A stretch of DNA of 64,000 nucleotides from Azolla caroliniana. Taxonomy: Eukaryota; Plantae; Polypodiophyta. A program made the translations under genes and the position numbers. Shown here piece after piece: positions 7,217 to 49,300 of the stretch. Under the pieces are notes generated by a model that was not told the origin of the DNA, made no database searches, and worked only from the letters and a program-made list of their open reading frames with translations. The stretch is from positions 8,494,001 through 8,558,000 of the forward strand of contig JBHGNT010000001.1 in the NCBI GenBank assembly GCA_043228905.1, written 5' to 3'. Numbering within the stretch: position 1 is the first letter of the stretch; each line of letters begins with the position of its first letter.

Positions 7217-7853
7217 TGTCGTGAAGAAAACCGGCCATAGGCGGAATCAGAGAGAAAGTGCGTAAACCGACCCTTACACGGATGGACGCGTGACTTGATA
7301 TTTTGCACACGAACCGGTGGATGTAAATACTAAGCGCGCACATTTATTAGGGGGGGGATTGTGCGTATCCCGGTCAGAGGGACAGGGAATAAAAGGAAGA
7401 GAAAAAGGGGAAAACGGGTATCGTGCGCGAGGACGAAGAAAAAGGCGTTGGTGCAGAATGGAAGGCGGAGCTCTCTCCCTTCGACTCGAATCGCCGCTCT
7501 CTGCGGGTGTCGGGGGGTCGCTACCTCTGCTTGATGGACAGCCCGTGTGCTTCCAGCAGAGTCGTTCCCTCCCCCCCCCCCCCCCCCCCCCTTTTTGTTT
7601 CTTTGAGTCGTGTGACTGTCGTCGGTGTGCGTGAGTAGGGCCCCCGTGCCGGGTCCGTCGCCGCTTTGTTGGTTGTAATTGTCGGAGTTTTTAATCTCTG
7701 TCATTATAATTAAGTGTTACGTTCTATATCTCTCTTTCTCGCTTCTACGTGTCGGTGAATCTCTCTCTCTCTGTCTCTCTATCTCTCGCTCCTCGGTCCA
7801 AGACCCCCTGTGGTCCCGCCCCTTTCTACACGTATGTGCGTAACAACGCGACA
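7217..7853 (+). mobile_element. Solo LTR, family A
   Basis: TGTCGTGAAGAAAACC...AACAACGCGACA, TSD TCGC/TCAC. Confidence 0.88.
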
Positions 7854-7857
7854 TCAC

Positions 7858-9806
7858 TCCCTTCAATCAATTCTATTGGTCGACGAGAATCACGTCTGAA
7901 CCAAGACCAAGATGTTGGAAGGACAAATGTTGTTCTCAAATTCGAATGGTGGCTAAGGACGAGGTCGAAGCGGTAGAAGAGGTCGATTCGACCCATCTCA
8001 CGAAGGGAACTCAAACCTTCGACATCAAGACGACGGAAGCCATCAAGGAACCTTCGGAAGAAGGGGGAGCTTCCATGCCGAACAAGGTCGGCAAACAAGG
8101 CCCACAACTTGCAAGTATTGTGGCAAAATTGGCCACCGCAAAGAGGAGTGTCGTAAAAAGAGAAGTGAGTTGGCTTCGACAAGCCGACAACTCACAAACT
8201 ATGCCACCAATGCCGAATATGACGACTACAGTGGACTATTCGTAATGAGGCATAGAGCGAATTTTATGACGATCTCTGAATCCACAAGCATCTCCAACTC
8301 CGAAGACGTGTGGTTCGTCGATTCCAGCGCCTCACATCATATGACGTCACACCAACAATGGTTTCCTGACTTACGAACACCGTACTGACCGGGCTTCATA
8401 GAGACGGGAGATGACACCACACATCCCATTTGGCACATCGGCAATGTCCCATTTGAAAAAGAAGGCGAACAAACTTGCATCAAGAATGTCTTCCATGTGC
8501 CCACAATAACGAAGAATTCGGTCTCAGTCGGCCAAATCATGGAGCAAGGCATGCAATTCCGCTTCAACAATGAAGGTTGTTTCATCGAGAAAGATGGCCG
8601 AGTCATAGCCAATTACACTCAGATGTATGGGGAGACGATCGGCGGATGCCGATACTACGTCACCTTCATCGACGACTACTCCCCCTACATGTGGATCTTT
8701 CTGATGTTGAAGAAGAGCGAAGTGCTCTCCCACTTCCAAAAGCTCAAGGGTCAAGTTGAAAAAGAAACCGATTGGCACATTCGATGCCTACGATCGGATA
8801 GAGGCAAGGAGTACTTCTCCAGCGAATTCACTTCCTACCTCCAAGGTGAAGGCATCCGGAGAGAATTCTCGTTCCGACACACACCCCAACAAAATGGAGT
8901 AGCCGAAAGGAAGAATTGGCAAATACTCGAGGTAGCACACGCCATGATGCATGAGAAGCACATGCCGAACTGGCGGAAGTGGCATCCACGGCCGTCTATC
9001 TCATGAATCGATGCACCAGTAATGGAGTGCATGAGCTAACTCCATACGAGCCCCTCGTCGGAAGGAAGCCGATCCTGTTGCACCTCAAGGTGTTTGGAAG
9101 CATTGCAAATGTGTGCATTCCGAACGAACAACGACAGAAGCCTGACACAAAGTTGGAGAAATGTATCCTCGTAGGATACTCGTCCGAGAAAAAGGCATAC
9201 AATTTCGTTAACCCTTCGACCCGAGCGGTTCGAGTAAGTCGAGACGTCGTTTTCGATGAATCTGCATCCTGGTACGCACTAGAGACAACTTCGACTCTGA
9301 CTCCACTCGACCCAAAATCCGCTGAAATAGAGATAGAAGCGAAAGATCGACTCACGCCCATGTTCGAAGGAAGTCGGATGACGACAAGGCTTAGTGGGCC
9401 ACAAGAGCCCCCAAGAGACCGAAGCACATCGCAACCAAGTACGACCTTGGACAGAGGCAAAGGTAAGATGCCCGAATACGAAGTCGACCATCACGATGTC
9501 AGTGATTCGGATGTGTCAACTCCCTCACTAGACATTGAGTTTGGTGTACCCATCATGCGGACACCCAGAGTAAAGAAGGCGCTCACATCGGCGAGCGAAA
9601 AACTTCAACGCTCTTCTAAAGAGAAGAATTCGGTCACTCGGCTCGGCTACAAGTACATGGCCAATCATTATGCCTTTGCGATGAAGGTAGTGGCCAAACA
9701 AGAGCTTGAGAGCTCTACAAAAGTGGCTCGTGACCCACGATGGGTGAAAGCAGTCGACCCAAGCCTCCGTCAAGGGCTTGAGGGAGAGGAACTGAAATTG
9801 CCATGA
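7858..9806 (+). pseudogene. Copia gag-PR-INT remnant in element F
   Basis: ORF fragments 8170-8388, 8497-9006 and 8979-9806, with internal deletions relative to copy E. Confidence 0.85.
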
Positions 9807-11483
9807 GAATACCGATGCCGAAAGCCGCATAGAAGTTGACATCGAAAGCCGGACAACGCCGAAAGAAAAATAAGATGTCAGACGCCTCACACTTGAGCTT
9901 GACGGGGCGTGTTGAGAGATCAAGCTCAACTTAGTTTAGTTAGTTAGTCAACCATGTAACTTTGTAGTTACGTAGATAGAATCTAGTTAGAAGTGTTGAC
10001 CATAACGCCTTAAATAGGACCTTGTACTTAAGTGAGATATTCTAAATCCCACTCCCAAGTACATTTAATATAGGACTTATACCCTTGTACCTATATTCTC
10101 CTCACACATGTGCACCCTTGCACATGAGATCTACATATACCTCATTGTGGGCATTTTTGTATTTGATGATGCTATTTTAATCTAGACTTAATCATCCCCC
10201 ATCTTGTGTTGTTCATAAGTGTATCTTCCTCTCTCTCTTCCGGTCACACACATATCACATAATCTTCCGTGCTTAACTTAATCACATAATTAGGTACTAA
10301 TTAACCCTTACTTAATTACCCAATTCTTAACAGAATCGTCGGGCTTCCATGACCGATTTGCATTCTTCCTTCATCATTGAGATGGCTTCTACCTTCGCCG
10401 GAGACGGTTTCCGGCCATATGGTCCGCATAGCGGTCCGACCACCAGGATTTCTGATTGTTCGAACGCCGACTTCACCCTGGAGAAGGTAAGCCGAGTGCC
10501 CTCAAGCCTCTATAGTATCTTCTTGCAATCAGAGATGTGGTCCGTGACGAATGTCCGACATTTGTCTGACCCGACCGATTCATCCTTCGGATCGACGCTT
10601 CCTTCGGCTAACCTCTCATTGTCCGGCTCCGACGAGAGTCGCTTCCTCTTCAGAAAGTCAACCATAGTAGCATGTAACTCTTCCTTTACTATCCCTAGCA
10701 CCTCTCTCAGGCTGAGTTCCACCCGATTGTTGAGGATCCATTCCTCCAAGACCTTTCGCAGGTCCGTTGCTCTCTCTATCTCCGAGCTCAGTCGGAAGCT
10801 CGGAAACATAGTCTTTTCTTGTGGGCCGGTGGGCATGCGTCATTTTGCTTCGGGTCACTCCGGATCTCGTACCGATTCGAAGGTGCGGCCCCTCTGGCCT
10901 TCCTGACCCTCTTGTCTTCAACCAGAACCTCATAGTTCTGGCACACAGCTTCCACGAAGCCGGTTTTCTCCTCCACCGGATCGCTCCACCTGGTGACCTC
11001 TCAGACCCGCATCTCCGCACGGTCCGCCTCTTCCTTCTTTAGCTTCTTCCCGGAGAAGCCTTCTAGTATAAACGGCCAAAACCCGAAAAAAGTACACAAC
11101 CGGAAGAATGATATCAATGATTAGGTTGATGAAGAATTATTTGAATCCATTGAAAGGTGCTCTTGGCTAAACCTTAGGTGCTATATGTGAAGTAAAACAT
11201 TCCCAAATTTAATTTTACTATTCTAGGGAAAGGATAATATTTCCGGCCACCCTTTTCGAGCATGTATGCAAGTAAGAAAGGAATTTGCCTTCAAGGAATG
11301 TATTGAGGGGAATTCTACATACAAAAATAACTACTTGCATGAAGGATAAAATACAATATAAAATTTACTCATCATGAGATTCAAAAAATCTATATTACTT
11401 TAATAAATAAAAATAATAATTTTACCTTTGGTAAAGGAGGCAATACATATATCTGATGCTATTGAATAATTGTTAAATGACAA

Positions 11484-19510: not shown

Positions 19511-21503
19511 ATAATTGTAAGTATGAGTCGATACGTATGTGCACACGTTGTCACGTAATTACACGTACGTGTAAGGAACGAAGGCGTGACCATAGGGGTC
19601 CTGGACCGAGGAATGTGAGAAAAGGGGAAAAGTGCAACAAAGAACGTGTGTCGGGCAAGCGTTGGATGCGGACAAGCACAAAGCTCGACCGGCTTGGTCG
19701 AGATCAGATCGATGCAAGAGACAATTATAAGAGAAAGAAACCCTCAATCGATTAAGAATGGATTACAACCAGCTCGTCGGTAACTGAGCCACTACTCGCT
19801 CGACAACACACACACATCAGAGACGAGATACAACGTGGAGCCTCTGTCGGGAGCACCCAAGCTTCCCACACGAATAGAGGCGTCCGGCAAAAGAACTCCT
19901 GCAGAGATCACCGATACAAAACAAATGTTCGGTCCCTAGTCCGAGAGCACTCCGTTCTCCCCAAAAACGTGATCCTCTCTTAGCCCTCTCTCCCGACCTT
20001 TATAGGTCCTTGAGGGAGGAGCCATCACATCATGTAATTACATCATCTTTATTCTCTGTCACTTCAGACAAAGATTGGTTACGATTTGTTAATCTATTTA
20101 ATGTATCTATGTTTATCCACATCACGCCGACCTATTCTTAGACGATGTACAAATAATGTTGAGAGATCAAGCTCAATTTAGTTTAGTTAGTTAGTCAACC
20201 ATGTAACTTCATAGTTACCTAGATAGAATCTAGTTAAAAGTGTTGACTATAATGACTTAAATAGGACCTTGTACTTAAGTGAGATATTCTAGATCCTCCA
20301 CTCCTAAGTACATTTAATATAGGACTTACACATTAGTACCTATATTCTACTCACACATGTGCACCTTTGCACATGAGATGTATATATACCTCATTGTGGG
20401 TATTTTTGTATTCAATGATGATAATGCTAATATAATATACACTCTGGTTTACTCATCCCCCATCTTGTGTTGTTCATAAGTGTATCTCTCCTCTCTCTCT
20501 TCCTCTCACACACACACACACATATCACATAATCTTCCGTGCTTAACTTAATCACATAATTAGGTACTAATTAACCCTTGCTTAATTATTTACCTAATTG
20601 TTAACATGGTATCAGAGCGTTGTCGAGTTATTACGCAAGTGCGTGTGGAAACGAGGCGGGACCGCGGGGGTCTCGAACCAAAGAGCAAGCGAGGGAGGAG
20701 AAAGAGAGAGAACAGGCTACGCAGAACCGGGGATACACAGGGACACGGCCCTTCAACACGGAGAACGCGAACAGACACCGACTCAGACAGACGCGGATGA
20801 CTAAATATGTATATTAACAAATGGCTAACACGACCACAACCCTCGATGGGGCACAGGTTGGTTACAACCGAATAGGCCGGCGAGCAGATGCCGATGCCTG
20901 TTCGCTTCGACGCACAAACAGGGGAAACGGGGAAACGGGGGTTTGCAGGTCGGAGGTGCTGCCGGAAGCACTCGGGCGTTCCTCGAAACAGCGCGAGCCT
21001 CCTCGGAACCCTGCACAGAAAGCTATGGAGCTCAAGAAGGAAGGAAACAGAGAGAGAGAAGCGTCCAGAAACGGTCCGACAACACTTCGTCCTCTCCGCC
21101 CGCGATCCCTGCAACAGCTCTTTCCTCCTCTTTTTATAGCCCAACGAGCAGGCCGTCATGTCAGCTTTATTCCTTGTCCCTTTTGGACAGGGATCCGCTC
21201 CGTCCTTCACGCGTCCGCGTAGATACGCCGCCGACTCGTACAGTTCCTTCGCTCGCGCGCGCGACCGAAAAGACTGTTCGCGCGGTCTTTGTCTCCACTT
21301 GTGTTAGGGCCCGTTCCTGCCGATTATCCTCCTAATTCGCTTCTATGTACAACTTGGAGCTTGCGCGCGTGAAGAACCGGTTCCCACGCCTAGGTGCGCC
21401 GATTCCGCCTATGGACGGTTTTCTTCACGACATCCGCCCCCACCTAACCGCGCATCCTCCGGTATGCGCCAAGAGAGTTGGGACGGAGAAAACCGGCCCG
21501 TCT

Positions 21504-24500
21504 TCATTCCTCGTTTTCGGATCGTTCGTCACTGCTGACTAGGAGAGCCGGGTCCGGCTCGTCATCATGTCGCTTCTTGAACGCTTTGATCCGCTTCCCT
21601 GCAACCGGTATCGCCACTCTCGTGCCGTCAAGTTCCGCCAGGTGATATGTCCCGTTGTCATTGGCGCTCCGTACCACGTAAGGCCCGAACCACCTTCGTG
21701 CGAACTTCCGTGTGGCTCGGTGCTGGTTGTCGAGGCTGCTGTCGTAGACGAGCACCCAGTCACCTTCTTCGATTTTCTTCGGTCGGAGCCGGTGCGTTCG
21801 GTCGAACCTGGCTTTGTTCTTTGTCCTCGCCACCCGGAGCTTCTCCGCAGCCAGTTCCACGTCCTCCGGCCTCCGCCCGAGTTGTCGTATACGCGCGGCC
21901 AACAACTCCTCCCGGCTCATCTCGTCCCTCCAGTCGACCGTTGCCCACGAGGAGATCGTCCGTTCCATCGGCATGATCGGCTTCTGGCCGAACATGAGCT
22001 CCGTCGGCATGTACCCGGTTACCGAACTGTGCGTGGTCCGGTCTGCCCACAAAGCATAAGGTAGCAGCCGCGGCCAGTCACCGACTCGGCCTCCGCATGC
22101 CCGGACCAACGCCTTGACGATCGGTCCGTGTCCGCGCTCCACCTTTCCATTCGCCTCCGGATTGTACGCAGTGGTGAGCGAGAGCTTGACTCCCAGCCGG
22201 TCGAACAGCTCCGCAGCTTCTTCGGCGTCCAACTCCCCTCGGTCAGCCACGATCTTCCCGACGCACCCGTACCGGCATATCACGTCCTCGATTAGGAACC
22301 GGCATACGGCCGCGGTCGTTTTGTTCGGAAGGGCCCGGCCTTCCACCTGGTTCGTCAGATCCTCCCGCGCTAGGACCAGGTACCGCATCTGTCCTACTCC
22401 CATTGGCATCGTTACCAGATCTACCATCCATTTGAAATGGATGGCCGGAGGGTACGTAGGGTGAAGCTCGTCTCGATGTCGGACTATGGAGTGCATCTGG
22501 CAGCTCTCGCAAGTTGTCACGAACCGATGCACGTCCTGGTACTGCCCCGACCACCAATACTTCCCCTTCAGTTTCTCAAACGTAGCCCATGTCCCACGGT
22601 GTCCAGCCCAAGGGCTGTCGTGGTAGGCCGTCAGCAGCTCCTCCTGTTCTTCCTTCATCGCCACCACCCGGAGCGGAGCGCCGTCCCTCTTCTTCGGGTG
22701 CTTCCATAGATAGCCATCCCGGAGAAAGAACCGGTACGCTTTCTTCCGGATCCGGTTGGCCTCGTCCTTCGTCCATGACGCATCGGGCGTCATTGTCTTC
22801 AAAAACCCACCGATCTGCAGCCACTCCCCGTCGTACTTGCTCGCGTCGAAGTCGTTAAGCGCCGGAGTGCTTGTCCCGTCGGTTGTTACATACGCAGTCT
22901 CGAAGAAGTCCACGCCGACCTCTTCGTCCTCCGAAACCATGCCGCCCTCGTCATCGAATCTCGCCCTTGAAAGCATGTCGGCCATGGCGTTGTCTTTCCT
23001 GGAAATGTGTCGTACTACCGGGTCTAGGGACTTGATGTACGCTATCCACCTGAGCATTGCCAGGTCCGGCGTCGCGCATCCGGAAACCATGCCGAGAATC
23101 GGCATGCAATCCGTCTCTATGATTACCTCTGTCCCGATCAGATAGTCCTTGTCGGCCTTCACCGCCGAAACGATACCCCAGAGTTCGCGTTTAACCTGGG
23201 CGTATCCTCGCTGCCGTTCGCTGAGGACCTTCGCGCCGAATCGGATCGGAAACCGATTGCCGTCCTCGTCTTCTTGGTTGACGACCCACCCGATTCCGGT
23301 CGGACTCGTGTCAACCGTTATGTACACTGGGGTGCCCTTCCCGTAGACGGCCTTTCGGAGCGCCGGTGCTGCCGAAAGAGCCTCCTTCAGCTTCCGGACC
23401 GACTCCGTGTGCTTGTCTAGCCATTCGAATCGTCGCCCTTTCCTCAATAACCCGTATAGCGGCTCCGCAATGTGGGCGTAATGCGGGATCCATATGTGGT
23501 AGAATGCGCATGCCCCCAGGAATCTTCGTACTTCCGTGACCGAGCTGCAGTCGGGCTTCATCGCGGAGATGGCTTCTACCTTTGCCGGAGACGGTTTCCG
23601 GCCATATGGCCCACATAAGTGTCCGACCACCATGATTTCCAACTGCCCGAAGGCTGATTTCTCCCCCGAGAAGGTGAGCCTCGCATCCTCTAGCCTTTGC
23701 AGCACCTTCTCGCAGTCGTCGATGTGCGTCATCACGAATCGCCGGCATCCGTCCGGCCCGATCGTCTCGTCCTTCTCTTCTACCGGGCATCCCTTGATCG
23801 GGATGTCGTCTAGAAACGGCATGGTGATGTCCGGGATGCAGTCCCTCAGCACCTTGTTCATTGCATTCACCATGTGGGCCACCGAGTTGGTCCCTCCTTG
23901 CGGCAGCGTACACATCCGCACTAGGCCGAGGGGAGTTCGCATCGTCGTAATGTCTCTGCTCTCCACGGCTAGCTGGAACTGGTCGTACCCTGAGTATAGA
24001 TCACCGACCGAGTAAATCGACCTTCCGGCGAAGGCCTCCGCGAACTCGTCTATGGTCGGTCCGATCCCTGCGTTCCGAATGGTCACTCTATTGACCGGCT
24101 GCAGGTCCTGAATGAAGCGCAATGATCCGTTTTTCTTTGGTACGGTAAACCAGCGGTTTGAATACGGGGCGCTCGACGGCTCGAGAATGCCCATATCAAC
24201 TTTCTGCTTCAACAGCTCCATCAACTTCGGGATGTGAGCTCTCGGAACCGAAATTGGCTTGAGATTCCATGGTACATGCGGTACCGTGAATATCACCATC
24301 GGCTCTACGATCGTCGGGTCCACGCACCCGATTTCCTCCGGCGAGAATGCGAAGGCTTTCCCGTGCCTTCCGAGCATTCTCCGGAACCGGTCTTCCTCCG
24401 CCGGCAGTAGGAACCCGCCCCCACCGATCTTCAGCTCGCGGAGCGTCTCGTCGGTGAAGGTGTGTCCTATGCAGGCCCGATCTCGTAAGCTGGGGTCCGA

Positions 24501-24968
24501 TGCAACCCCTTTAATCCGGGATTCACTGCCCTCCGGTAAGGGCGCCGCAACTGGCCTCACCTTCCGGTCCACCGTCTTGTACTTGGTGCTCACTCGGGCC
24601 GTCCGTTCCGACTCGAGCCCTCGACCGAAGTCCGCGATGACTTCATACATTTCTTCGGAACATACCGGTATCGTCCGGTCTTCGTTAAGGTCTTCTTCGA
24701 CTACCTTCCCCAGCATTCCCAAGGTGTCGTCGAAGGAGACCGCCTCCACGGCGCCACTGATTTCTTCGTCAGGGCCGAGAACTCCGCACGCTCGAAGTCT
24801 CCCCTCCGTCTTTGTTTTCTCTCGGCCGGCGATGCCGACCATCGTACATGCTCCGCTGCCGGAGAAGCAAAATTTCCTACCTATTGTACACGGTTTTATC
24901 GTACAGATGTGGGGTCTTCCCGGAGCATCCGGACTGTCGCGGCCCCACGCCTTGGCAGTCCTTTCTAA
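21504..24968 (-). CDS. pol: Pol (RT-RNase H-integrase) of element A, probably entered by -1 frameshift
   Basis: RT FIQDLQPVN...PFLDD; RNase H VDTSPTGIG...TDC...ADMLSR; integrase HHCC, D,D-E and GPY motifs. The frame stays open from the first ATG (24842) up to the gag stop. Confidence 0.95.
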   Translation of the reverse strand, partial: LERTAKAWGRDSPDAPGRPHICTIKPCTIGRKFCFSGSGACTMVGIAGREKTKTEGRLRACGVLGPDEEISGAVEAVSFDDTLGMLGKVVEEDLNEDRTIPVCSEEMYEVIADFGRGLESERTARVSTKYKTVDRKVRPVAAPLPEGSESRIKGVASDPSLRDRACIGHTFTDETLRELKIGGGGFLLPAEEDRFRRMLGRHGKAFAFSPEEIGCVDPTIVEPMVIFTVPHVPWNLKPISVPRAHIPKLMELLKQKVDMGILEPSSAPYSNRWFTVPKKNGSLRFIQDLQPVNRVTIRNAGIGPTIDEFAEAFAGRSIYSVGDLYSGYDQFQLAVESRDITTMRTPLGLVRMCTLPQGGTNSVAHMVNAMNKVLRDCIPDITMPFLDDIPIKGCPVEEKDETIGPDGCRRFVMTHIDDCEKVLQRLEDARLTFSGEKSAFGQLEIMVVGHLCGPYGRKPSPAKVEAISAMKPDCSSVTEVRRFLGACAFYHIWIPHYAHIAEPLYGLLRKGRRFEWLDKHTESVRKLKEALSAAPALRKAVYGKGTPVYITVDTSPTGIGWVVNQEDEDGNRFPIRFGAKVLSERQRGYAQVKRELWGIVSAVKADKDYLIGTEVIIETDCMPILGMVSGCATPDLAMLRWIAYIKSLDPVVRHISRKDNAMADMLSRARFDDEGGMVSEDEEVGVDFFETAYVTTDGTSTPALNDFDASKYDGEWLQIGGFLKTMTPDASWTKDEANRIRKKAYRFFLRDGYLWKHPKKRDGAPLRVVAMKEEQEELLTAYHDSPWAGHRGTWATFEKLKGKYWWSGQYQDVHRFVTTCESCQMHSIVRHRDELHPTYPPAIHFKWMVDLVTMPMGVGQMRYLVLAREDLTNQVEGRALPNKTTAAVCRFLIEDVICRYGCVGKIVADRGELDAEEAAELFDRLGVKLSLTTAYNPEANGKVERGHGPIVKALVRACGGRVGDWPRLLPYALWADRTTHSSVTGYMPTELMFGQKPIMPMERTISSWATVDWRDEMSREELLAARIRQLGRRPEDVELAAEKLRVARTKNKARFDRTHRLRPKKIEEGDWVLVYDSSLDNQHRATRKFARRWFGPYVVRSANDNGTYHLAELDGTRVAIPVAGKRIKAFKKRHDDEPDPALLVSSDERSENEE

Positions 24969-27091
24969 AAATCCTCTCGGTTTTCGGAACCGAGGGAGTC
25001 GCGGTTACGTTCGTGGTTCGGCCGTACCGTCAGAAACTGGACCGAATGGCGCCCGTCTTGGCTTTTGACCCTCGCGTAGGCCGAACCATTGTCCAGCACC
25101 TTGGTCTCCATCCGCGCCGCCGTGATGTACGGCTCTCCCAGTATGACCGGATGCGAAGACGTCTCCTGCACGAAGAAGTGCTGGTCAATCTCGACGTCGC
25201 CGATCTTGACTCGCACATTCGGACAGGCCCCGTGCAGTTCCTCGGTGGCGCGCGTTGCTGCCCTTATTTTCCACCCGTGCTTGGTGTTGATCGGCCATTT
25301 GCCCTTCTTATAGAAGTCCATGGACATCAAATTGATCTCCGATCCGTGGTCCACCAAAGCTATCACCGGTTCCTGGACATCGCCGATCTTTACCGGGGTT
25401 TCCGTGGTCGCTCGGGCCCAGTGTGGTCTCGAATAGTGGCTTTCCGCCCACTCGTCTCCCAGCGCCATGTCGTCTAGGTGCGTCGTCCGCACTTCCACCG
25501 GTCTTTCCGGTTCTGTCTCCGTCGACAGCCTCTTCCGTTTCACTAAGTCCACGATGGAGTCATGGAACTCCTTCTTGGCGATTCCCAGCACCTCTCGTAA
25601 CGACAGCTCCACCTTGCTGTCGAGGATCCGTTCCTCCAGGACCTTTCGTAAGTCCGTGGTTCTTTCTATCTCCGTTCCCAGACGGTACCCGCCCTTCTGG
25701 GGTTTATCTTGCGTACCGGCCCCGCCGGCTTCGTCCCGTCGTGGCCCGGACCGGGTCTCGTATCGTTGTGAGGGCCCGGTCGTCCCGGGTTTCCCCACCC
25801 GCTTCTCTTCTACCAGAGCCTCGTAGTTCCGGCAAGCGGCTTCCACGAAGCCCGTCTTTTCCTCGACCGGGTCGCTCCACCCGGTCATCTCCCGTACCCG
25901 TTTCTCCGCACGGTCCGATTCCTCCCTTTTAAGCCCTGCACCGGCAAGGCCTTCTAGCATCGTCGGCCAGAATCCGGCTTTGCTTTCCTTTCGGGCCTCG
26001 CCGCCCCCGACTCGAATGCCGGCCGACGCCGAGTAGTGGACGGTTTCCGCGTGTCGGGCCGCCGCCTCTTCCATCAACCTTTTCATACCACCTCGCCCGT
26101 CGTTTCGGCTCAGGGCCCTTCGGGTGTCGCTGGCATGCACCCGTCCTTCCCACAGGTACACCACCCTGTTCCTCAGCGCCTCCGCGAAGTCGCCGCAGTC
26201 CTTCCGAATGTGGCCGACTTCATCGCACCACATGCACCTGTTTCCTGCCGCCGGCCGTCGGTCACGAGCCGGTTCGCCTCCTTCCCTTCGGGCCTGCGCG
26301 ATTTGGAGGTCCTTTATCGCCTTCGTCAATTCCTCCAGCGCCGCTCCTCCGGTTGAGCCTCTGACTACGCCGGTCGAAGCCGAACCAGTTTCCAACCACT
26401 CTCGGGTCTCTTCCTTTCGCACCTGTGGCGCTGGTTCGAGCTTCCTTGCTGCGACCGAGCCCGACCCGGTTGCCCCGTTATCCGCCCATTCTCGGCGTTT
26501 GTCGAAACGGCCACAGACCTTCCTGATAGCCGCCCAGTCGGTAGTGAGCCCGTCTTCGGTTTCCAGCAAGAGGCCCACTTGCTCCCGATCCCGCTCGTCG
26601 ACCGACTTGACAAATAGCAAGACCCGGCTCGTGTCCAGGATGGTTCGGTCGAGCGCCGAAAGGCGCGCAAAGTTTTCCTCGAACTCCCGGAGGAGTGCCG
26701 ACGCGTTTCTTCCCTTCCCCGGGGATTCCACCCATTCCATGAACCTTCGCTTCGAAAGCCAGAGCGCGTCGTCCAGCCCGTATTTCTCTAGGAGCCGACC
26801 TTCGAACTCTTCCCAGGTACGGCTCTCCGCCCGCACCTCGAGCACCTCCGCATGGATGCTCGGCATCGCCACTCGGGGAAACCCGGCAAGACGCCTTTCT
26901 TCCGGAATGTCCCGCATCAGCATTTCTGCACCGTAGGACGCCAGATACTTCGTGGCATCCCTCCCATCGAACCGGCCGAGCGTGCCGACGACCGCCTCAA
27001 TAGCTCTGTCGAGGGCACCGGTGCCCTCGCGCGCGTTTACAATCCGATCCACGGCCGAAGCCATGGCCTCTGCAAGATCCGACCCCCTCAT
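24965..27091 (-). CDS. gag: Gag-protease of element A
   Basis: CCHC knuckle CMWCDEVGHIRKDC; protease ALVDHGSEINLMS; first ATG at 27091 (the ORF-track start is a GTG inside the PBS). Confidence 0.93.
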   Translation of the reverse strand: MRGSDLAEAMASAVDRIVNAREGTGALDRAIEAVVGTLGRFDGRDATKYLASYGAEMLMRDIPEERRLAGFPRVAMPSIHAEVLEVRAESRTWEEFEGRLLEKYGLDDALWLSKRRFMEWVESPGKGRNASALLREFEENFARLSALDRTILDTSRVLLFVKSVDERDREQVGLLLETEDGLTTDWAAIRKVCGRFDKRREWADNGATGSGSVAARKLEPAPQVRKEETREWLETGSASTGVVRGSTGGAALEELTKAIKDLQIAQARREGGEPARDRRPAAGNRCMWCDEVGHIRKDCGDFAEALRNRVVYLWEGRVHASDTRRALSRNDGRGGMKRLMEEAAARHAETVHYSASAGIRVGGGEARKESKAGFWPTMLEGLAGAGLKREESDRAEKRVREMTGWSDPVEEKTGFVEAACRNYEALVEEKRVGKPGTTGPSQRYETRSGPRRDEAGGAGTQDKPQKGGYRLGTEIERTTDLRKVLEERILDSKVELSLREVLGIAKKEFHDSIVDLVKRKRLSTETEPERPVEVRTTHLDDMALGDEWAESHYSRPHWARATTETPVKIGDVQEPVIALVDHGSEINLMSMDFYKKGKWPINTKHGWKIRAATRATEELHGACPNVRVKIGDVEIDQHFFVQETSSHPVILGEPYITAARMETKVLDNGSAYARVKSQDGRHSVQFLTVRPNHERNRDSLGSENREDF

Positions 27092-27113
27092 CTTCTGCTC
27101 TTCTGCCGCCTCC

Positions 27114-27131
27114 TTCACGTCGGGTTCACCA
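27114..27131 (-). promoter_or_regulatory. Primer binding site complementary to tRNA-Trp
   Basis: TGGTGAACCCGACGTGAA matches the 3' end of plant tRNA-Trp (...TTCACGTCGGGTTCACCA, from memory). Same PBS at 34714-34731 and about 43008-43025. Confidence 0.85.
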
Positions 27132-28998
27132 AAGATGTCGAGTTATTACGCAAGTGCGTGTGGAAACGAGGCGGGACCGCGGGGGTCTCGAACCAAAGAG
27201 CAAGCGAGGGAGGAGAAAGAGAGAGAACAGGCTACGCAGAACCGGGGATACACAGGGACACGGCCCTTCAACACGGAGAACGCGAACAGACACCGACTCA
27301 GACAGACGCGGATGACTAAATATGTATATTAACAAATGGCTAACACGACTACAACCCTCGATGGGGCACAGGTTGGTTACAACCGAACAGGCCGGCGAGC
27401 AGATGCCGATGCCTGTTCGCTTCGACGCACAAACAGGGGAAACGGGGAAACGAGGGTTTGCAGGTCGGAGGTGCTGCCGGAAGCACTCGGGCGTTCCTCG
27501 AAACAGCGCGAGCCTCCTCGGAACCCTGCACAGAAAGCTATGGAGCTCAAGAAGGAAGGAAACAGAGAGAGAGAAGCGTCCAGAAACGGTCCGACAGCAC
27601 TTCGTCCTCTCCGCCCGCGATCCCTGCAACAGCTCTTTCCTCCTCTTTTTATAGCCCAACGAGCAGGCCGTCATGTCAGCTTTATTCCTTGTCCCTTTTG
27701 GACAGGGATCCGCTCCGTCCTTCACGCGTCCGCGTAGATACGCCGCCGACTCGTACAGTTCCTTCGCTCGCGCGCGCGACCGAAAAGACTGTTCGCGCGG
27801 TCTTTGTCTCCACTTGTGTTAGGGCCCGTTCCTGCCGATTATCCTCCTAATTCGCTTCTATGTACAACTTGGAGCTTGCGCGCGTGAAGAACCGGTTCCC
27901 ACGCCTAGGTGCGCCGATTCCGCCTATGGACGGTTTTCTTCACGACAGCGTGTGGTTTAGCACATCCACTAAGCCCACCCAACTCTTCGTAATTGTGTGT
28001 TCAAAACGCCGATGACAAATTCCGGCCATTTGCTACCGTAGTGCTGCTACGTAGCACGTACACGTGATCGAAGGAAGAAAAACAAAAGAAGAGAAGACAC
28101 AATCAACATGAACACACAAATGGGTAGCTCGCTCCCTAGCGAAAAGCTAGACTGGAGCAATTATTCATCTTGAGAGTTCAAGATGACCCAATACCTCGTC
28201 AGCCAAGGGTATTGGAGCTATATCAAGGGCGCTCAAGAAAATCGACCCAACCCAAAAGACGCCGACTACTCAACATGAGAGCAAGCGGCTAGTCGAGTCA
28301 TGTATTGCTTGGCAACATGTGTCCACGACCACATGCTTAGCCACATTCAAGATGCCAAGACACCTAAAGAAGCATGGGCGAACTTAAAGAAAATGTTCGT
28401 CGCCAACACGACCGCCCAAAAGCTTCAACTCCGACAAGAGTTGAATAACATTCGACAAAAAGACATATCCGTGTCGGACTACACCGCCAAGATCAAGAGA
28501 ATTTGCGACTCACTTGGCTCCATCAACATAAACGTCAACGAAGAAGAGAGGGTTCAAGTATGCTTGGGCGGCCTCGCACAACGATTCAATCCATTATGGA
28601 CGGCAATCTTGGCAAGAGAAAACCCTCCTTCATTCTTCGACTTCCAATCAATGCTATTGGTCGAAGAGAACCACGTCCGAACCAAAAGCAAAATGTCGGA
28701 AGGACAAATGTTCTTCTCAAGCTCGGATGGTGGCCGAGGACGAGGTCACGACAGAGGAGGTCTCGGCGGTAGAACAAGCCAATTCGGCCCATCACACGAA
28801 GGGAACACAAAACTTCACGGAAGCCATCAAGGAACCCTCGGAAGAAGGGGGAGCTTCCACGCCGAACATGGTCGGCAAATGAGGCCAGCAACTTGCAACT
28901 ATTGCGGCAAAATCGGCCACCGTGAGGAGGAATCCCGAAAAAGAAGAAGCGAGTTGCCTTCTACAAGTTGACAACACGTGAATTACGTTGTCAACTCT

Positions 28999-30156: not shown

Positions 30157-30844
30157 TGTCGTGAAGATTTTCGTCCACAAGCGGAAACCCGAGGAACGAG
30201 AGCCAAAGAGCGATGTGCAACGTTGCACACGTACATAATGTATTTGTAATAATAATAAAGGTATAAAGGTGATGTGGTTGTACGCACATCCATGCGAGAG
30301 AGAGAGAGAGAGGTACTATGCGGTACATAGGTACCTAGTTGTTTGTGAGGAGGTGGGAGTTAAGGGGCCATCAATCTCACCCTCCCCCAAATCAAGGCAA
30401 ATATCCCCTTTGAATGAAAGGGGATATTTTAGTCTCACTTTTGTGAACGGTCTTCCCTCCTTGTGCTATAAAAGGAGAGAGAAGGCACCATTGTGGGGGT
30501 TGCCTATTTTGAGTGTGCGAGGTATACCACATAGGTCGAGCGTTAGGGTTCGGTTAGGGTTTTCTTCTTGGGTTTTCCTTTAGGGTTTTCTTATAGTCGT
30601 TTGGTGCGGCCATGGCGGCCACCATTGTAAAGCGTTTATGTTTTCTTAATCGAACTTCTTGTTGAGTATCTTGTCTTCATCTTCTTCTATCATAATGTCA
30701 TATTCGTTCTCTTCTCCTCTTGAGCTATGAGCTAATCTTCCATTCGTTGTCTTAACCTTTCTCCTCTTCTCCCTAGTCCAAGATCCCCGTGGTCCCGCCC
30801 CTTCCACACGCACGCGCGTAACAACGCGACATCTTTGGTGAACC
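30157..30844 (+). mobile_element. Family A LTR plus partial Trp PBS; remainder deleted
   Basis: TGTCGTGAAGA...AACGCGACA (30157-30831), then TCTTTGGTGAACC. About 30 bp of host integrase is missing and there is no right-hand TSD. Confidence 0.85.
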
Positions 30845-33524
30845 TACCCGATGAAGTGTTCTCCCACTTCCAAAAGCTCAAGGGCCAAGTTGAAAAAGAA
30901 ACCGGTCGGCACATTTGATGCCTACAGCCGGATGGAGGCAAGGAGTACTTCTCTGATGAATTCACCTCGTACCTCCAAAGTGAAGGCATTCGAAGAGAAT
31001 CCTTATGCCGACACACACTCCAACAAAATGGTCCAGTCACTGAAAGGAAGAATCGGCAAATACTCGAGGTAGCACGCGCCATGATGCATGAGAAGCACAT
31101 GCTGAACTTCTATTGGGCCGAAGCGGCATCCACGGCCGTCTATCTCATGAATTGATGCACCACCAATGGAGTCCATGAGCTAACTCCATACGAGCTCCTC
31201 GTCGGAAGAAAGCAAATCCTGTCGCACCTCAAGGTGTTCGGAAGCATTGCGAATGTACGCATCCCGAATGAACAACGATAGATGCCCGACGCGAAGTTGG
31301 AGGAATGTATCCTCATAGGATACTCGTCCGAGAAGAAAGCATACAAGTGCAACAACCCTTCTACCCGAGCGGTTCATGGCAAAGTGTAGTGGGCCACAAG
31401 AGCCCCCACGCGACCCAAGCACATCATGGCCAAGTACGAACTTGGACAAAGGCAAAGGTAAGATGCCCGAATATGAAGTTGACCACCCCGATGACAATGA
31501 TTCGGATGGATCGGCTCCCTCACTAGACAGTGAGTTTTGTGTACCTATCATGCGGACATCCGGAGTAAAGAAGGCGCTCACATCGGCGAGCGAAAAACTT
31601 CGATGCTCATCTAGAGCTAAGAACGTCGTCACTCAGCACAACTACATACAATGAGTACATGGCCCATCATTACGCCTTCGCGATGAAGGTAGTGGCCGAA
31701 CAAGACCTCAAGAGCTCCACCGAAGCGGCTCGTAACCCACGATGGGTGGAACTAGTCGACCTTCACCCACACACTACAAGCCTTCGTCACCGGCTTGAGG
31801 GGGAGGAACCGAGATTGCCACGACGAAGAAAGCCGAAGGCTGAACGGAAGCACACGAAGCCGACGAAAGCCAAAGCGGATGTCGGACGCCTCACACTCGA
31901 GCTTGAGGGGGCGTGTTGCAAGATCAAGCTCAACTTAGTTTAGTTAGTTAGTTAACCATGTAACTTCGTAGTTACCTAGATAGAATCTAGTTAAAAGTGT
32001 TGACTATAATGACTTAAATAGGACCTTGTACTTAAGTGGGATATTCTAGATCCTCCACTCCTAAGTACATTTAATATAGGACTTACACATTAGTACCTAT
32101 ATTCTACTCACACATGTGCACCTTTGCACATGAGATGTATATATACCTCATTGTGGGTATTTTTGTATTCAATGATGATAATGCTAATATAATATACACT
32201 CTGGTTTACTCATCCCCCATCTTGTGTTGTTCATAAGTGTATCTCTCCTCTCTCTCTTCCTCTCACACACATACACACACATATCACATAATCTTCCGCG
32301 CTTAACTTAATCACATAATTAGGTACTAATTAACCCTTGCTTAATTATTACCTAATTCTTAACAAATAATTTACAACTGTGAGCATCCGTGTATGTTGTG
32401 GTTCACGCGCTCAGGTCTTCATTTCCACTCGTAGCTGGTTTCCCTCACGACTTCCACCCCCACTAAACCGCACATCCACCAGTATGTGCCGAGAGGGAGA
32501 GAGAGTTATCCAGGGAAACCGGCCTGCCCTCAACCATTGCTCTCCGATTTGTCGCGCTCCCCGTCCTCGTCCGTTCTGCCTAGATCGTTGCTTTCTTCCG
32601 CACACCCCGGATACAGCTCTTCCTCGTGCCATTTCTTGAATGCCTTGATCCGCTTTCCCGCAACCGATACTGCTAGCCGCGTCCCGTCAAGCTCCATTGG
32701 TCACCACGTAAGGCCCGAACCACCTCCTCGAGAACTTACGTGTTACCTTGTGTTGATTGTTGAGGCTGCTATCGTAAACCAAAACCCAGTCGCCTTCCTC
32801 GATCTTCTTCGGTCTCATCTGGTGTGTCCGGTCGAACTAGTCTTTGTTCTTCTCCCTTGCCGCATAGAACTTAGCCTTTGCCAATTCCACGTCCTCTGGC
32901 CTCCGCTCAAGCTATCGAATCCGCGCCATCAACAACTCTTCTCAGCTCATCTCATGCGCTCCATCAGCATGATCGGCTTCTGCCAATACATCAACTCTGC
33001 CGACATGAACCTGGTCACCAAACTGTGTGTAGTTCGGTTCGCTCACAACGCGTAAGGTAGGAGCCACGACCAATTCCCGACTTGGCCTTCGCACACCTGT
33101 ACTAACGCCTTTATGATCGGTCCATGTCCGCACTCTATTTTCTCGTTCGCTTCCGGATTGTATGCCGTAGTGAGGGAGAGTTTTACCCCTAACCGGCCGA
33201 ACAACTCTTTGGCCTCTTGCGCATCCAGCTCTCCCCAATCAGCCACGATCTTCCCTACACAGCCGTACCGGCAGATCACCTCCTCGATCAGGAACCGGCA
33301 CACGGGCGCAGTCGTCTTATTTTGCAGAGCACGACCCTCCACCTGGTTCGTCACGTCTTCTCGCGCAAGCACCAGATACCGCATCTGCCCTATCCCCATT
33401 TGTTAGGAACAGTACTAAGACAGAGAAGTACTGTAAAGAATAGTACTAAGACAGAAGGAATTAGTACTAAAAGATGAGGATTAGTACTAAGGGAGGTGTA
33501 GAACTGTCGAGAGAAGGAAAAAGT

Positions 33525-46383: not shown

Positions 46384-49300
46384 CGGTTCGGGGAAACGCG
46401 GTGGACGTGGTGAATCGGATGGAGTCGGCGGGTCGGGGCCGGCAAGACGGATCGGCGCCAGCAAGGGACCGGCAAGGCGGTTGGGTGTTGGTAAGGCGAA
46501 AGACCCGGTTGATCACCATCGCCGAAATCTCTCACCCTTTTCCTTTCTTGGCACATACCGGTGGATGTGCGGTTTGGTGGGGGTGGATGTCGTGAAGATT
46601 TCCGGCTATAGTGTGAAACCGGGGTGGAAGGGGCAAGTCGGTGGTGTGCAACATGTGCACATGTATACTAGGATATGGTGTATAGAAAGAGAGGGGAAAT
46701 TTTTGTCCCACATTGTAAGGTCCCTCCCTCCTTGGGCTATAAAAGGAGGGGAGGGGTCACTTATGAAGGGGTTGCCTATTTTGAGGGAGAGAGGCATACC
46801 ACTTAGGTCGAGGGTTTCCTATTCGGTTTTAGGGTTTTGGTTAGGGTTTTCTTCTTGGGTTTTCCTTTAGGGTTTTCTTATAGTCGTTTGGTGCGGCCAT
46901 GGCGGCCACCATTGTTGTAACCATTCGTTGTTTTAATATAACTTGTTGAACATCTTGCCTCCGCCGATCTCTCCTTCTATGTCGTGGTCTTATTCTTTCC
47001 TCTTCTCCTCTTGAGCTAAGCCTCCATATCGTGTCCTCTTCTTTCTCCTCCACTCCATAGTCCGAGACCCCGGTGGTCCCGCCCCTTCTACATGTAAGCG
47101 CGCAACAACGCGATAACGGTTGACGTAAGACCAAGATATTGACGGTGGCGGCGAGGTGACGAAGGTAAAAAGGGCTACGGATGGGCGGTCTACGGAGATC
47201 CTCACACCGATCCGGCGGTCGGCCCGAGAGCCGGCGTGAGTCCTATAGGGAAGATCGGTGGCGGCAGGAGAACGTGATTGGACAGCAAGAGGCGACGAAC
47301 GGCAAGGAGGTATCAGGCTGGCGAGGCGGCCACGAACCAAATCGGACCTTCCGGCAAGGTCAGTGGGCGTAAGGAAGTCCGGTCCTACGGGATCCCCACA
47401 CTTAACCAGAGACTCCGGCAGTTCGGCCAACGTGGCAACATGAGACCGAGAGAGAAGGTTGGTGGCGGTGGGAAACGGGACCTGACTACGCGGAAGACAC
47501 GAGGAGAGTCAGGGAAGAACTCAAACAAAAGACACCTGAATTTCGGCAAGCATAGAAACGGAGTCTGGTCCTATGGGACCCTCACACCGATCCGGAGACT
47601 CCGGCAGTTCGGCCAATGTGGCAACATGAGACCTAGGGAGAAGGACGGTGGCGGCAGGGAACGAGACCCGACGACACGAGGTAGCGGATAGGGAGCCGGT
47701 AAAACGGGCGGACGAAGTGTGAAACCCTCACCGGCCGGTTACGGTTTCAGAAGGAGCCGGTAGGGGCAAACACAGGGAGGTGTGTCAGGCCGGAAAGGCA
47801 CACCTGGGACGGAACAAGAGTCTCGCAAGTGGCCATCGCGGGCCGGATCAAAGCGTGACTGCGGGACGGTGTTCGGCGCGGGCGGAAGACGGCACAAGGG
47901 AGGTGTCGGGAACGAGGTGACATAGTGGACTGCACAGGGTCAGAGTCAGGGGATGACAAGAGAGGCCGGAGGAGGATCCTCCACACTCGCTTCGTAGATC
48001 TCGGGAGCTCCGTCGAAGTAGCGAAGACTGACACGGCAAGCCCGGGGTGACAAGCTGGTGGGGGCGAGGGGACAACGACAAGCGGAAGACTCGGGACCTG
48101 TTGCAACAGCACGAAGACGGGAAGGGCTAAGCAGGCTACTACGGGGTGTTCCTCGGATGCGAAGGACACTAGTATGCGGGTGAGCGGCGATGCACGATCT
48201 GGCCGGAAAAGGGGGGCCGACAAGGCGTGCAATGAACCGGAGTACGGCACAGGCAGTGCCAAACAACGGACGAAGGTATGTGGCACACGAAGGTGCCGGA
48301 GCGGGAAGGCGAGCGCGGAGACAGTTTGCGCGGTTTGGAGGTAGCGCGAAGAAGGCCAGAAAGGGATCCTCCACACCATTCTGGAGACCATGGCGGTTCG
48401 AGCCAACGCGGCAATGTAAGACCATGGAGAAGGAAGGTGGCGGCGAGAGGACGAGGGCAACGTGAAACAACATGGGACGGCAATCAGGACGACGCGAATG
48501 ATCAACGGAGGCCAAGCGGGCCACTATGGGCATTCCCCAAGCGGAGGACATCGGGCATACGGCGGGGAGCGGGGCGTTCATACGACCGAACAAGGGCCAA
48601 CGGAAGTACGCGTAGGACCCATCGACGGGTCGAACGAGCCTACGGGGAGGTAAGTGCGAAGGAAGAACCGAAGCCGACAGATCAAACCGGCAGCGACCTG
48701 GGATGCGGATTACGGAAGACCGGTTTCTCACCGGCCGAAATCTCTCACCCTTCACCGGATTTGGCACGTACCGGTGGACGTGCGGTTAGGTGGGGGCGGA
48801 TGTCGTGGAGAATTTCGGCCAGAGGTGGAAACCGGGAAACATTGGCTACATCGGCGGGGTGCAGCATGTGCGCTCACCCGTGTACATTTAGTGTGAATAA
48901 CGAGGGCGCCTTTATGGCGCCGAAGAGTAGTCAAGTCGGGACAGACAATCCCATGTAACTCAGGATTTATCCCACATTGTAACGCATCCCTCTCCTTGTT
49001 CTATAAAAGGAAGGGAGCGCCCTTTGTGAAAGGGGTTGCCCATTTTGCGTTAGCGGGTATACCGTTAGATTTAGGGTTAGTTACATTTCTTCTTCTTGTT
49101 GTTCTTCTTCTTCTTCTCCCCCTTCGTGTTCGCTTAGGGTTTGCTTCAACTCCTCTCCTGCGCAAGACCCCGCTCGGCGCGACGAGCCCGTGAGGTCCCC
49201 GACCGGCGGCTTGGCAGTTGACGACTATTGTAACCTACCTTGGTCCGGCTCGAAGCCGGGAATGTATTCTTCCTCTTATATATATACATTTGCGTCTGTC

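What the first reader, a model, noticed from the sequence alone, without database searches (positions are those of the whole stretch)
21450..21496. Covarying hairpin with a CCGG loop immediately upstream of the PPT in four family A members
Seen on the element strand: A GCGCAT-ACCGGAGG-ATGCGC (21450-21469); B GCACGT-ACCGGTGG-ACGTGC (48764-48783); C GCACAT-ACCGGTGG-ATGTGC (46551-46570); L GCACAT-ACTGGTGG-ATGTGC (32470-32489). Two stem positions change in fully compensatory pairs. All four also keep a CCGGTT about 20-45 nt upstream that could pair with loop ACCGG. B and C share almost nothing else 3' of gag with A. Inference: a selected RNA element, either a pseudoknot or a palindromic kissing loop (ACCGGT) for dimerisation or co-packaging, or a structure positioning RNase H at the PPT.
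Basis: partly seen in the sequence, partly recalled or inferred. Interest (0 to 1): 0.78.

Follow-up and report, generated by a model that had tools for sequence, protein, structure and literature searches.

The report
Conserved hairpin framing retrotransposon plus-strand primer
A 20-base hairpin with paired stem mutations sits at a fixed distance before the second-strand primer site across a family of retrotransposons whose closest named relatives are from a liverwort, and together with a predicted second helix just behind that site it likely helps the element process its primer; the proposed 'kissing loop' and pseudoknot are not supported.

Summary
The four hairpins are at the stated coordinates in a Phygy-like Ty3/gypsy family. 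In 68 rows (4 window copies plus 64 relatives picked by integrase protein only) the 6-bp stem is paired in 404 of 408 cells. It lies 17-18 nt from the LTR edge. Pair 3 switches A-U/G-C on 3-4 independent branches (own tree-aware test, E=0.013); the other pairs are not individually significant. In the four window copies the upstream CCGGTT is predicted to pair with the start of U3, across the PPT, in a helix that shows transversion swaps among relatives. In the other half of the family the U3 start is predicted to fold locally instead. Best reading (0.5): a cis element that brackets the PPT and likely helps plus-strand priming, working like the Sirevirus/copia PPT-flanking inverted repeat but with an extra sequence-conserved inner hairpin. 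Main rival (0.25): a Gag-binding or packaging loop. Function is untested. New variant of a known kind.

The parts
20621..27947 (-). Element A: full-length Phygy-like Ty3/gypsy element, 7,327 bp, 812-bp LTRs (808 of 812 identical), 4-bp TSD of NCGN type
27115..27131 (-). PBS of A, 4 nt after the 5' LTR; the tRNA-Trp assignment is recalled; its complement is the CCA-ending small RNA annotated miR894
24965..27142 (-). gag-protease ORF of A (725 codons stop to stop; DUF4100; one CCHC knuckle read from the sequence)
21504..25004 (-). pol ORF of A (RT, RNase H, integrase; no chromodomain); stop 34 nt before the hairpin
21488..21500 (-). A: 5' arm of the predicted outer helix (contains CCGGTT at 21491-21496)
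21450..21469 (-). A: inner conserved hairpin (6-bp stem, 8-nt loop that can close further C-G pairs)
21433..21449 (-). A: 17-nt G-rich PPT segment between the stem and the 3' LTR
21409..21424 (-). A: start of U3, 3' arm of the predicted outer helix
48720..48835 (+). Non-autonomous element B: outer 5' arm 48720-48748, hairpin 48764-48783, PPT 48784-48800, U3 arm 48805-48835 (27 predicted outer pairs)
46504..46623 (+). Non-autonomous element C: outer 5' arm 46504-46531, hairpin 46551-46570, PPT 46571-46587, U3 arm 46594-46623; LTRs 99.6% identical over 488 bp
32430..32530 (-). Truncated copy L: outer 5' arm around 32510-32527, hairpin 32470-32489, PPT 32453-32469, U3 arm below 32452

Best explanation
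The hairpin is a conserved, base-paired cis element lying 17-18 nt before the 3' LTR in this retrotransposon family, and together with a predicted second helix starting just inside U3 it likely brackets the PPT to help define the plus-strand primer. Shown: sequence conservation, fixed spacing, covariation of stem pair 3, and retention in elements that lost pol. Predicted: in the clade of A, B, C and L the U3 start pairs with an arm 50-85 nt upstream, enclosing hairpin and PPT; in the other clade the U3 start folds locally. Inferred and untested: reverse transcriptase would pause at the hairpin base just after copying the PPT, placing RNase H over the PPT's 3' part (about 13 bp behind the polymerase site in Ty3). 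The high primary-sequence conservation suggests that a protein (RT or the Gag knuckle) also reads the hairpin. Whether RNA or minus-strand DNA carries the structure is open.
For: Stem paired in 404 of 408 cells over 68 rows and 266 of 270 over 45 non-redundant rows. Pair 3 is 19 G-C, 48 A-U, 1 mismatch, 0 G-U. It is the top-ranked column pair in my R-scape-like test (E=0.013), with A-U to G-C double changes on 3-4 branches (chance 5e-4 to 5e-6). The anchored 3' arm lies 17 nt (31 rows) or 18 nt (41 rows) from the LTR, while the distance from the integrase anchor ranges from 50 to 329 nt. The hairpin is kept whether non-coding or inside the pol read-through, in all three frames. Outer helix: upstream:U3 duplex beats shuffles (p<=0.05) in 17 of 28 rows of the 17-nt class and 3 of 35 of the 18-nt class; a local U3 hairpin does so in 1 of 28 and 18 of 35. 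Own-partner pairing beats swapped partners (p=1.5e-5 over 10 groups; rank 4 of 720 over 6 merged groups). On a sequence-only alignment 9 of 11 outer pairs show double changes, including U-A/A-U swaps; the whole structure is 85.5% paired against 32-53% when slid. A held-out copy (L018:10500-10640) shows another compensatory version. B and C kept this island while losing pol. Precedent: PMC2829016 and PMC4439019 propose PPT-flanking structure for primer formation; Ty3 spacing about 13 bp per PMC5371799.
Against: No functional or probing data. Only pair 3 passes the tree-aware test; pairs 2, 4 and 5 rest on 1-2 events (E 10-30). No outer-helix pair passes on its own (best E about 6-19, two independent branches for the swaps). 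The L006/L013/L015/L071 subgroup shows neither second helix clearly. RNAalifold recovered only 5 outer pairs on A2, pairing the rest with the PPT, and no U3 hairpin on A3. Whole-region folding z-scores are weak, -1.43 to +1.58. RNAfold often pairs the PPT with upstream pyrimidines rather than leaving it open, although that pairing is not above composition (6 of 28, 3 of 35). L048, L049 and L060 carry a different hairpin and L057 a degenerate one. PMC3616985 argues that RNA structure per se is unlikely to modulate PPT priming. The PBS spacer varies from 1 to 7 nt, so the exact cut site, and hence the 13-nt fit, is unknown. 77 of 80 loci come from one series of assemblies.
Confidence: 0.5

Rival explanations
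1. The hairpin is a Gag/nucleocapsid-binding (packaging or chaperone-loading) signal. Its loop can be read as a C-G-closed GGAG/GGUG tetraloop with exposed guanines, and the fixed spacing simply follows from abutting the PPT.
For: C48:G53 closure is a standard pair in 68 of 68 rows, G-x-G in 63 of 68; loops are GGAG 31, GGUG 24, AGAG 7. Gag carries a CCHC knuckle in A; the motif occurs 40 times in the loci, nearly all of this family's type. HIV-1 NC binds the GGAG (psi) and GGUG (SD) tetraloops per PMC3247676. The stem's primary sequence is more conserved than integrase codon positions 1+2 (0.835 vs 0.772). It is kept in non-autonomous B and C.
Against: A triloop closed by two C-G pairs fits 65 of 68 rows and is what RNAfold prefers. 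In HIV, changing the GGAG loop did not significantly affect packaging per PMC7599994. A packaging signal does not need the fixed spacing or the second helix at the U3 start. The HIV loops lie in the 5' leader (recalled).
Confidence: 0.25
2. The element acts in another RNA step (nuclear export, stability, translation control or strand transfer), or the helices act only in minus-strand or plus-strand DNA.
For: Strand asymmetry is inconsistent: outer helix 13 G-U vs 37 A-C, U3 hairpin 29 vs 13. No G-U intermediates at pairs 3 and 5. The core also folds as DNA (mean -5.9 kcal/mol plus strand, -4.9 minus strand).
Against: Export or stability signals do not explain a spacing fixed to 1 nt. Family transcripts through this region exist only at low level in the related RNA runs, which neither helps nor excludes this.
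Confidence: 0.15
3. One reading: the loop palindrome drives kissing-loop dimerisation, or the loop pairs with the upstream CCGGT as a pseudoknot.
For: All four window copies have an upstream CCGGTT. Loop-loop duplex energies of -9.7 kcal/mol are possible for B and C.
Against: ACCGGT is in 19 of 68 loops, and the commonest loop is non-palindromic. Upstream CCGGT is in 13 of 72 rows. Own-loop complement upstream is in 8 of 68, 0 of 37 in the other class. The upstream motif is predicted to be taken by U3 with probability 0.68-1.00, in much stronger duplexes (-17 to -25) than with the loop (-7 to -12).
Confidence: 0.05
4. No selection on pairing: double changes come from CpG decay on both arms or from template-switch homogenisation of an inverted repeat, and conservation is a by-product of the adjacent PPT.
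For: All core double changes are transitions. The pair-2 changes in L005 and L016 are at CpG, in copies that also show CpG decay at the LTR edge. The absence of G-U intermediates fits arm-to-arm copying.
Against: The repeated pair-3 change and the pair-5 change run A-U to G-C, opposite to methyl-C decay. Stem columns carry 0-6 parsimony steps against 16-21 in columns 6-15 nt upstream. Outer-helix swaps are transversions across about 70 nt. Homogenisation could generate double changes but not the conservation.
Confidence: 0.05

Closest known systems
[quoted passage not shown] 2010, PMC2829016; passages read)
   Same: An arm upstream of the PPT is complementary to the start of U3, so the predicted helix encloses the PPT/LTR junction; the same proposed role in PPT primer formation.
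   Different: Here the host element is Ty3/gypsy. The left arm does not border the PPT: a 20-nt sequence-conserved hairpin plus about 10-19 nt lie between. In about half the family the U3 arm folds locally instead. The support here includes compensatory changes.
HIV-1/SIV PPT and cPPT consensus structures (PMC4439019 section read; PMC3616985 passages)
   Same: Conserved helices next to the RNase H cleavage site, with RT pausing proposed as the link.
   Different: In lentiviruses the G-rich 3' PPT is itself in the conserved helix and the model rests on SHAPE data. Here PPT pairing is not above composition and there are no probing data.
Phygy lineage of non-chromovirus Ty3/gypsy elements (Neumann et al. 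2019, PMC6317226; passages and one supplement row read)
   Same: 4-bp NCGN TSD, no extra domain, polyprotein fills the internal region, bryophyte relatives.
   Different: A is 7,327 bp, below the listed 7,656-9,968 range. No PPT-adjacent structure is mentioned in the passages or the row I saw.
HIV-1 psi (GGAG) and SD (GGUG) tetraloop hairpins bound by NC (PMC3247676, PMC7599994; passages)
   Same: The loop can be drawn as a C-G-closed GGAG or GGUG with conserved G-x-G; Gag has a CCHC knuckle.
   Different: Located at the 3' end against the PPT. A triloop reading fits almost as well. Gag has a single knuckle. Binding is untested.

Membership tests
Phygy (Ty3/gypsy non-chromovirus) | 4-bp TSD with NCGN motif | tested here: met
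   A has an identical NCGN 4-mer on both sides; B and C each have one flank of NCGN type and one differing by a single base (definition)
Phygy (Ty3/gypsy non-chromovirus) | No chromodomain, no extra RNase H, polyprotein spans nearly the whole internal region | tested here: met
   Pfam shows RT, one RNase H region and integrase only; ORFs cover 21504-27142
Phygy (Ty3/gypsy non-chromovirus) | PBS mostly tRNA-Trp | tested here: inconclusive
   The same PBS (up to 2 mismatches) occurs at 41 sites in the loci; its complement is a CCA-ending plant small RNA; the Trp identity is recalled, not from a call
Phygy (Ty3/gypsy non-chromovirus) | Size 7,656-9,968 bp | tested here: inconclusive
   A is 7,327 bp, slightly below the listed range
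Phygy (Ty3/gypsy non-chromovirus) | Monophyly with reference Phygy RT/RH/INT domains | not tested
   No reference Phygy sequences were fetched; the closest named relatives are Riccia sorocarpa proteins, up to 64% identical
Sirevirus/copia PPT-flanking inverted repeat | Upstream arm complementary to the start of the 3' LTR | tested here: met
   For A's clade only: 17 of 28 rows, swap test, pair counts; 3 of 35 in the other class
Sirevirus/copia PPT-flanking inverted repeat | Left arm borders the PPT directly | tested here: not met
   The arm ends about 10-19 nt before the 20-nt inner hairpin
Sirevirus/copia PPT-flanking inverted repeat | Host element is Ty1/copia | tested here: not met
   RT-RH-IN order, Ty3/gypsy type
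Kissing-loop dimerisation signal (DIS/PAL type) | Conserved self-complementary loop | tested here: not met
   19 of 68 rows; 12 of 45 non-redundant rows
H-type pseudoknot | Conserved partner complementary to the loop | tested here: not met
   8 of 68 rows; the partner is predicted to pair with U3 instead
NC-bound GGAG/GGUG tetraloop hairpin | C-G-closed tetraloop with G-x-G | tested here: inconclusive
   68 of 68 and 63 of 68, but a triloop reading fits 65 of 68
NC-bound GGAG/GGUG tetraloop hairpin | Specific binding by the Gag zinc knuckle | not testable with these tools
   needs a binding assay
Any Rfam family | Covariance-model match | tested here: not met
   0 matches at E<=1 for window 21300-21700

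The most novel reading that the evidence does not exclude
This family carries a ruler element: a sequence-specific hairpin that stops reverse transcriptase one enzyme length past the PPT/LTR junction so that RNase H defines the plus-strand primer, backed by a second helix at the U3 start that evolution has rebuilt in two ways (long-range in one clade, local in the other). It would be a covariation-supported, easily mutated case of structure-guided PPT selection in a Ty3/gypsy element, and would suggest that PPT-bracketing structures are shared by copia, gypsy and lentiviral elements.
Probability: 0.25. Interest if true: 0.7.

Novelty: new variant of a known kind. Interest (0 to 1): 0.45.

Why it matters
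How reverse transcriptases pick the PPT as the plus-strand primer is not settled. Structure around the PPT has been proposed for copia elements and HIV, and PMC3601003 says a systematic search in other LTR elements is warranted. This family offers a small element with natural compensatory variants and two alternative architectures, so the idea becomes directly testable by stem, loop and spacing mutants. In practice the hairpin-PPT motif also marks the 3' ends of autonomous and non-autonomous members: a model built from one subclade found all four window copies and no other window site. It is not a new kind of system, and the function is inferred.

Tried and rejected
No whole genome is held for this window, so there is no genome-wide copy census. 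Viral-contig scans gave nothing. Rfam gave 0 matches. ARAGORN found no tRNA in the window, so the PBS tRNA was not confirmed. Earlier scan findings: three look-ups returned nothing. No RNA holder was listed by the run index. Pairing of the PPT with the upstream pyrimidine tract, suggested by RNAfold, is not above composition in most rows (6 of 28, 3 of 35), so it is not claimed. The G-U versus A-C strand test was inconsistent. A match between the PBS spacer and a fixed PPT cut site was rejected because the spacer is 1-7 nt. My early note of 'no indels' was wrong: two spacing classes, 17 and 18 nt, exist. A protein-coding constraint was rejected: the hairpin is non-coding in most rows and in all three frames in others. 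A dimeric double-stranded DNA binding site was rejected: mixed half-sites are nearly absent (1 of 68 at pair 3). Rows dropped: 12 of 80 loci lacked a usable PPT/LTR junction (L002, L009, L017, L023, L055, L063, L064, L066, L067, L073, L075, L080). Of these, L009 holds a decayed hairpin and L063 a hairpin with one mismatch. 4 further rows (L048, L049, L057, L060) were set aside as divergent before the core counts. Only the best 80 of 208 confirmed loci were returned, so relatives below about 62% integrase identity are unseen. Literature searches. None listed a paper whose title or abstract start describes this hairpin; (all six terms required) returned 0. The library lacks most subscription journals. 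Unseen supplements of PMC2829016 (not opened) and the per-element file of PMC6317226 (not among the hits I read) may bear on the comparison.

Full report
Observation. The four 20-nt hairpins are at the coordinates given and lie directly 5' of a 17-nt G-rich PPT segment on the element strand. A degenerate pattern gives exactly these four matches in the window and none in 100 shuffles. CCGGTT lies 21-40 nt upstream of the stem in all four. 3' of gag, B and C share only 40-45 nt (hairpin plus PPT) with A.

Context. A (20621-27947, minus strand) is an intact Ty3/gypsy element with 812-bp LTRs differing at 4 sites, a gag-protease ORF with DUF4100 and one CCHC knuckle, and a pol ORF without chromodomain. 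B and C are non-autonomous derivatives with long LTR pairs (C 99.6% identical over 488 bp), and L is a truncated pol end. The closest named proteins are from Riccia sorocarpa, so a bryophyte host is inferred. The 4-bp NCGN TSD and simple organisation match the Phygy lineage as tabulated in PMC6317226. Tree placement against reference Phygy was not tested, and the tRNA-Trp label of the PBS is recalled.

A larger, unbiased set. 80 loci were fetched by integrase protein alone, the best 80 of 208 confirmed; 77 of the 80 come from one series of assemblies. 68 reach the PPT/LTR junction. With the four window copies that makes 72 rows; four divergent rows (L048, L049, L057, L060) were set aside, leaving 68. 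The six stem pairs are standard pairs in 404 of 408 cells. Pair 3 is G-C in 19, A-U in 48, a mismatch in 1 and G-U in none; pairs 2, 4 and 5 show double changes in 2, 1 and 3 rows. After collapsing to 45 non-redundant rows the count is 266 of 270. Between the two main subclades the stem is 0.835 identical, against 0.35 at integrase third positions, 0.772 at first and second positions and 0.24 just upstream. The anchored 3' arm lies 17 nt (31 rows) or 18 nt (41 rows) from the LTR, whereas the distance from the integrase anchor runs from 50 to 329 nt. The hairpin is non-coding in most rows and inside the pol read-through, in all three frames, in others.

Tree-aware test. On an integrase DNA tree I ran my own R-scape-like test (APC-corrected G test with a tree-shuffled null; not R-scape itself). 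Pair 3 ranks first among all pairs of the 59 columns tested, E=0.013 (0.043 on the core columns alone), with A-U to G-C double changes on four branches, two of which may be one event. The chance of such co-placement is 5e-4 to 5e-6. The direction is opposite to CpG decay. Pairs 2, 4 and 5 rest on one or two events and are not significant (E 10-30). The pair-2 changes could be CpG decay.

The commonest loop is non-palindromic. ACCGGT occurs in 19 of 68 loops, and upstream CCGGT in 13 of 72 rows. The complement of a row's own loop 5-mer is upstream in 8 of 68 rows and in none of the 37 rows of the 18-nt class. What is conserved in the loop is CC...GG around a variable centre. It can be read as a triloop closed by two C-G pairs (65 of 68) or as a C-G-closed GGAG/GGUG tetraloop (68 of 68).

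What the upstream motif pairs with. In all four window copies the CCGGT is predicted to pair with the start of U3, across the PPT (probability 0.68-1.00; 27 outer pairs in B). Among 63 distinct rows with enough LTR sequence, the upstream:U3 duplex beats 200 shuffles at p<=0.05 in 17 of 28 rows of the 17-nt class and 3 of 35 of the 18-nt class. A local hairpin at the U3 start does so in 1 of 28 and 18 of 35. Own partners beat swapped partners (p=1.5e-5 for 10 groups; rank 4 of 720 for 6 merged groups). On a sequence-only alignment of 29 rows, 9 of 11 outer pairs show double changes, including U-A/A-U swaps; outer cells are 75.8% paired, and the whole structure 85.5% against 32-53% when slid. 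The register of these outer pairs was chosen from copy A, which favours the unslid version. A copy not used in these tests (L018:10500-10640) carries another compensatory version. Limits: no outer pair is significant alone (best E about 6-19; the swaps map to two branches). The L006 subgroup shows neither form. RNAalifold recovers only five outer pairs on A2 and no U3 hairpin on A3, where registers shift (58.5% paired in one fixed register). Whole-region z-scores are weak. PPT pairing with upstream pyrimidines is not above composition.

Reads. Laid contigs of related runs cover the hairpin, PPT and LTR edge deeply, and cover drops sharply just upstream of the stem (depth here is not copy number). 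In polyA RNA of a related species label, 31 reads were laid in X21 (up to 29 with first mate on +, which would be the element's sense strand in the usual stranded protocol) and 10 in X22 (5 and 5). In X21 the two sides of pair 5 vary in 5 and 5 reads, and those of pair 3 in 19 of 25 and 12 of 19; the table is not phased. So family RNA through this region exists at low level; it says nothing about folding.

Mechanism. Shown: conservation, spacing, covariation of pair 3, and retention in elements mobilised without their own pol. Predicted: two helices bracketing the PPT. Inferred: a role in plus-strand priming (0.5). RT would meet the stem base right after copying the PPT. With the roughly 13-bp spacing reported for Ty3 RT (PMC5371799, passages), RNase H would sit 4-5 nt before the LTR edge. 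The true cut site is unknown, and the PBS spacer varies from 1 to 7 nt. PMC4439019 proposes pausing as a first step for HIV (section read); PMC3616985 doubts that RNA structure matters there (passages). The RNA-versus-DNA test was inconsistent. The main rival is a Gag/NC-binding loop (0.25): the tetraloop reading matches the HIV psi and SD loops (passages). Other RNA or DNA roles get 0.15, kissing loop or pseudoknot 0.05, neutral origin 0.05.

Comparison and novelty. The outer helix works like the PPT-flanking inverted repeat of Sireviruses and classic copia elements (PMC2829016, passages; restated in PMC3601003, passages). It is not a member of that class: the arm does not border the PPT and the element is gypsy. 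The inner sequence-conserved hairpin and the switch between long-range and local U3 helices were not found in the searches run (of most listed papers I saw only the listing) or in Rfam. Verdict: a real, selected cis element; new variant of a known kind; interest 0.45.

Noticed in passing
window 9890-9930 and 31894-31934: A second LTR family (LTRs at 6001, 9910, 20157, 31914; Met-type PBS by recall) has a 10-nt arm directly 5' of its PPT that is complementary to U3 about +11 to +20. This is the classic copia-type PPT-flanking inverted repeat, in the same window.
   Followed up: partly
window 43606-45600: Non-autonomous element C carries a 664-codon open frame of low complexity, partly repeated, with no Pfam hit. 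L018 holds a related C-like element.
   Followed up: no
L048:7898-7982, L049:6195-6279, L060:6690-6774: This subclade replaces the conserved hairpin by a different one. An upstream 6-mer is complementary to the changed 5' end of the PPT segment, a possible independent rebuild.
   Followed up: partly
window 37725-37760 and 33855-33890: Two chromovirus copies also have a small inverted repeat just upstream of their PPT; not tested for conservation.
   Followed up: no
window 24965-25004: gag and pol of A overlap by 40 nt, ending in a run of five T, which suggests a -1 frameshift site.
   Followed up: no
window 7217-7852 and 30157-30831: Two further LTRs of the same family lack the hairpin and PPT upstream. 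The second is followed by a cut-off PBS; both look like solo or 5' LTRs.
   Followed up: partly
window 20606-20625: Element A inserted just behind the PBS of another element, one of several nested insertions in this window.
   Followed up: no
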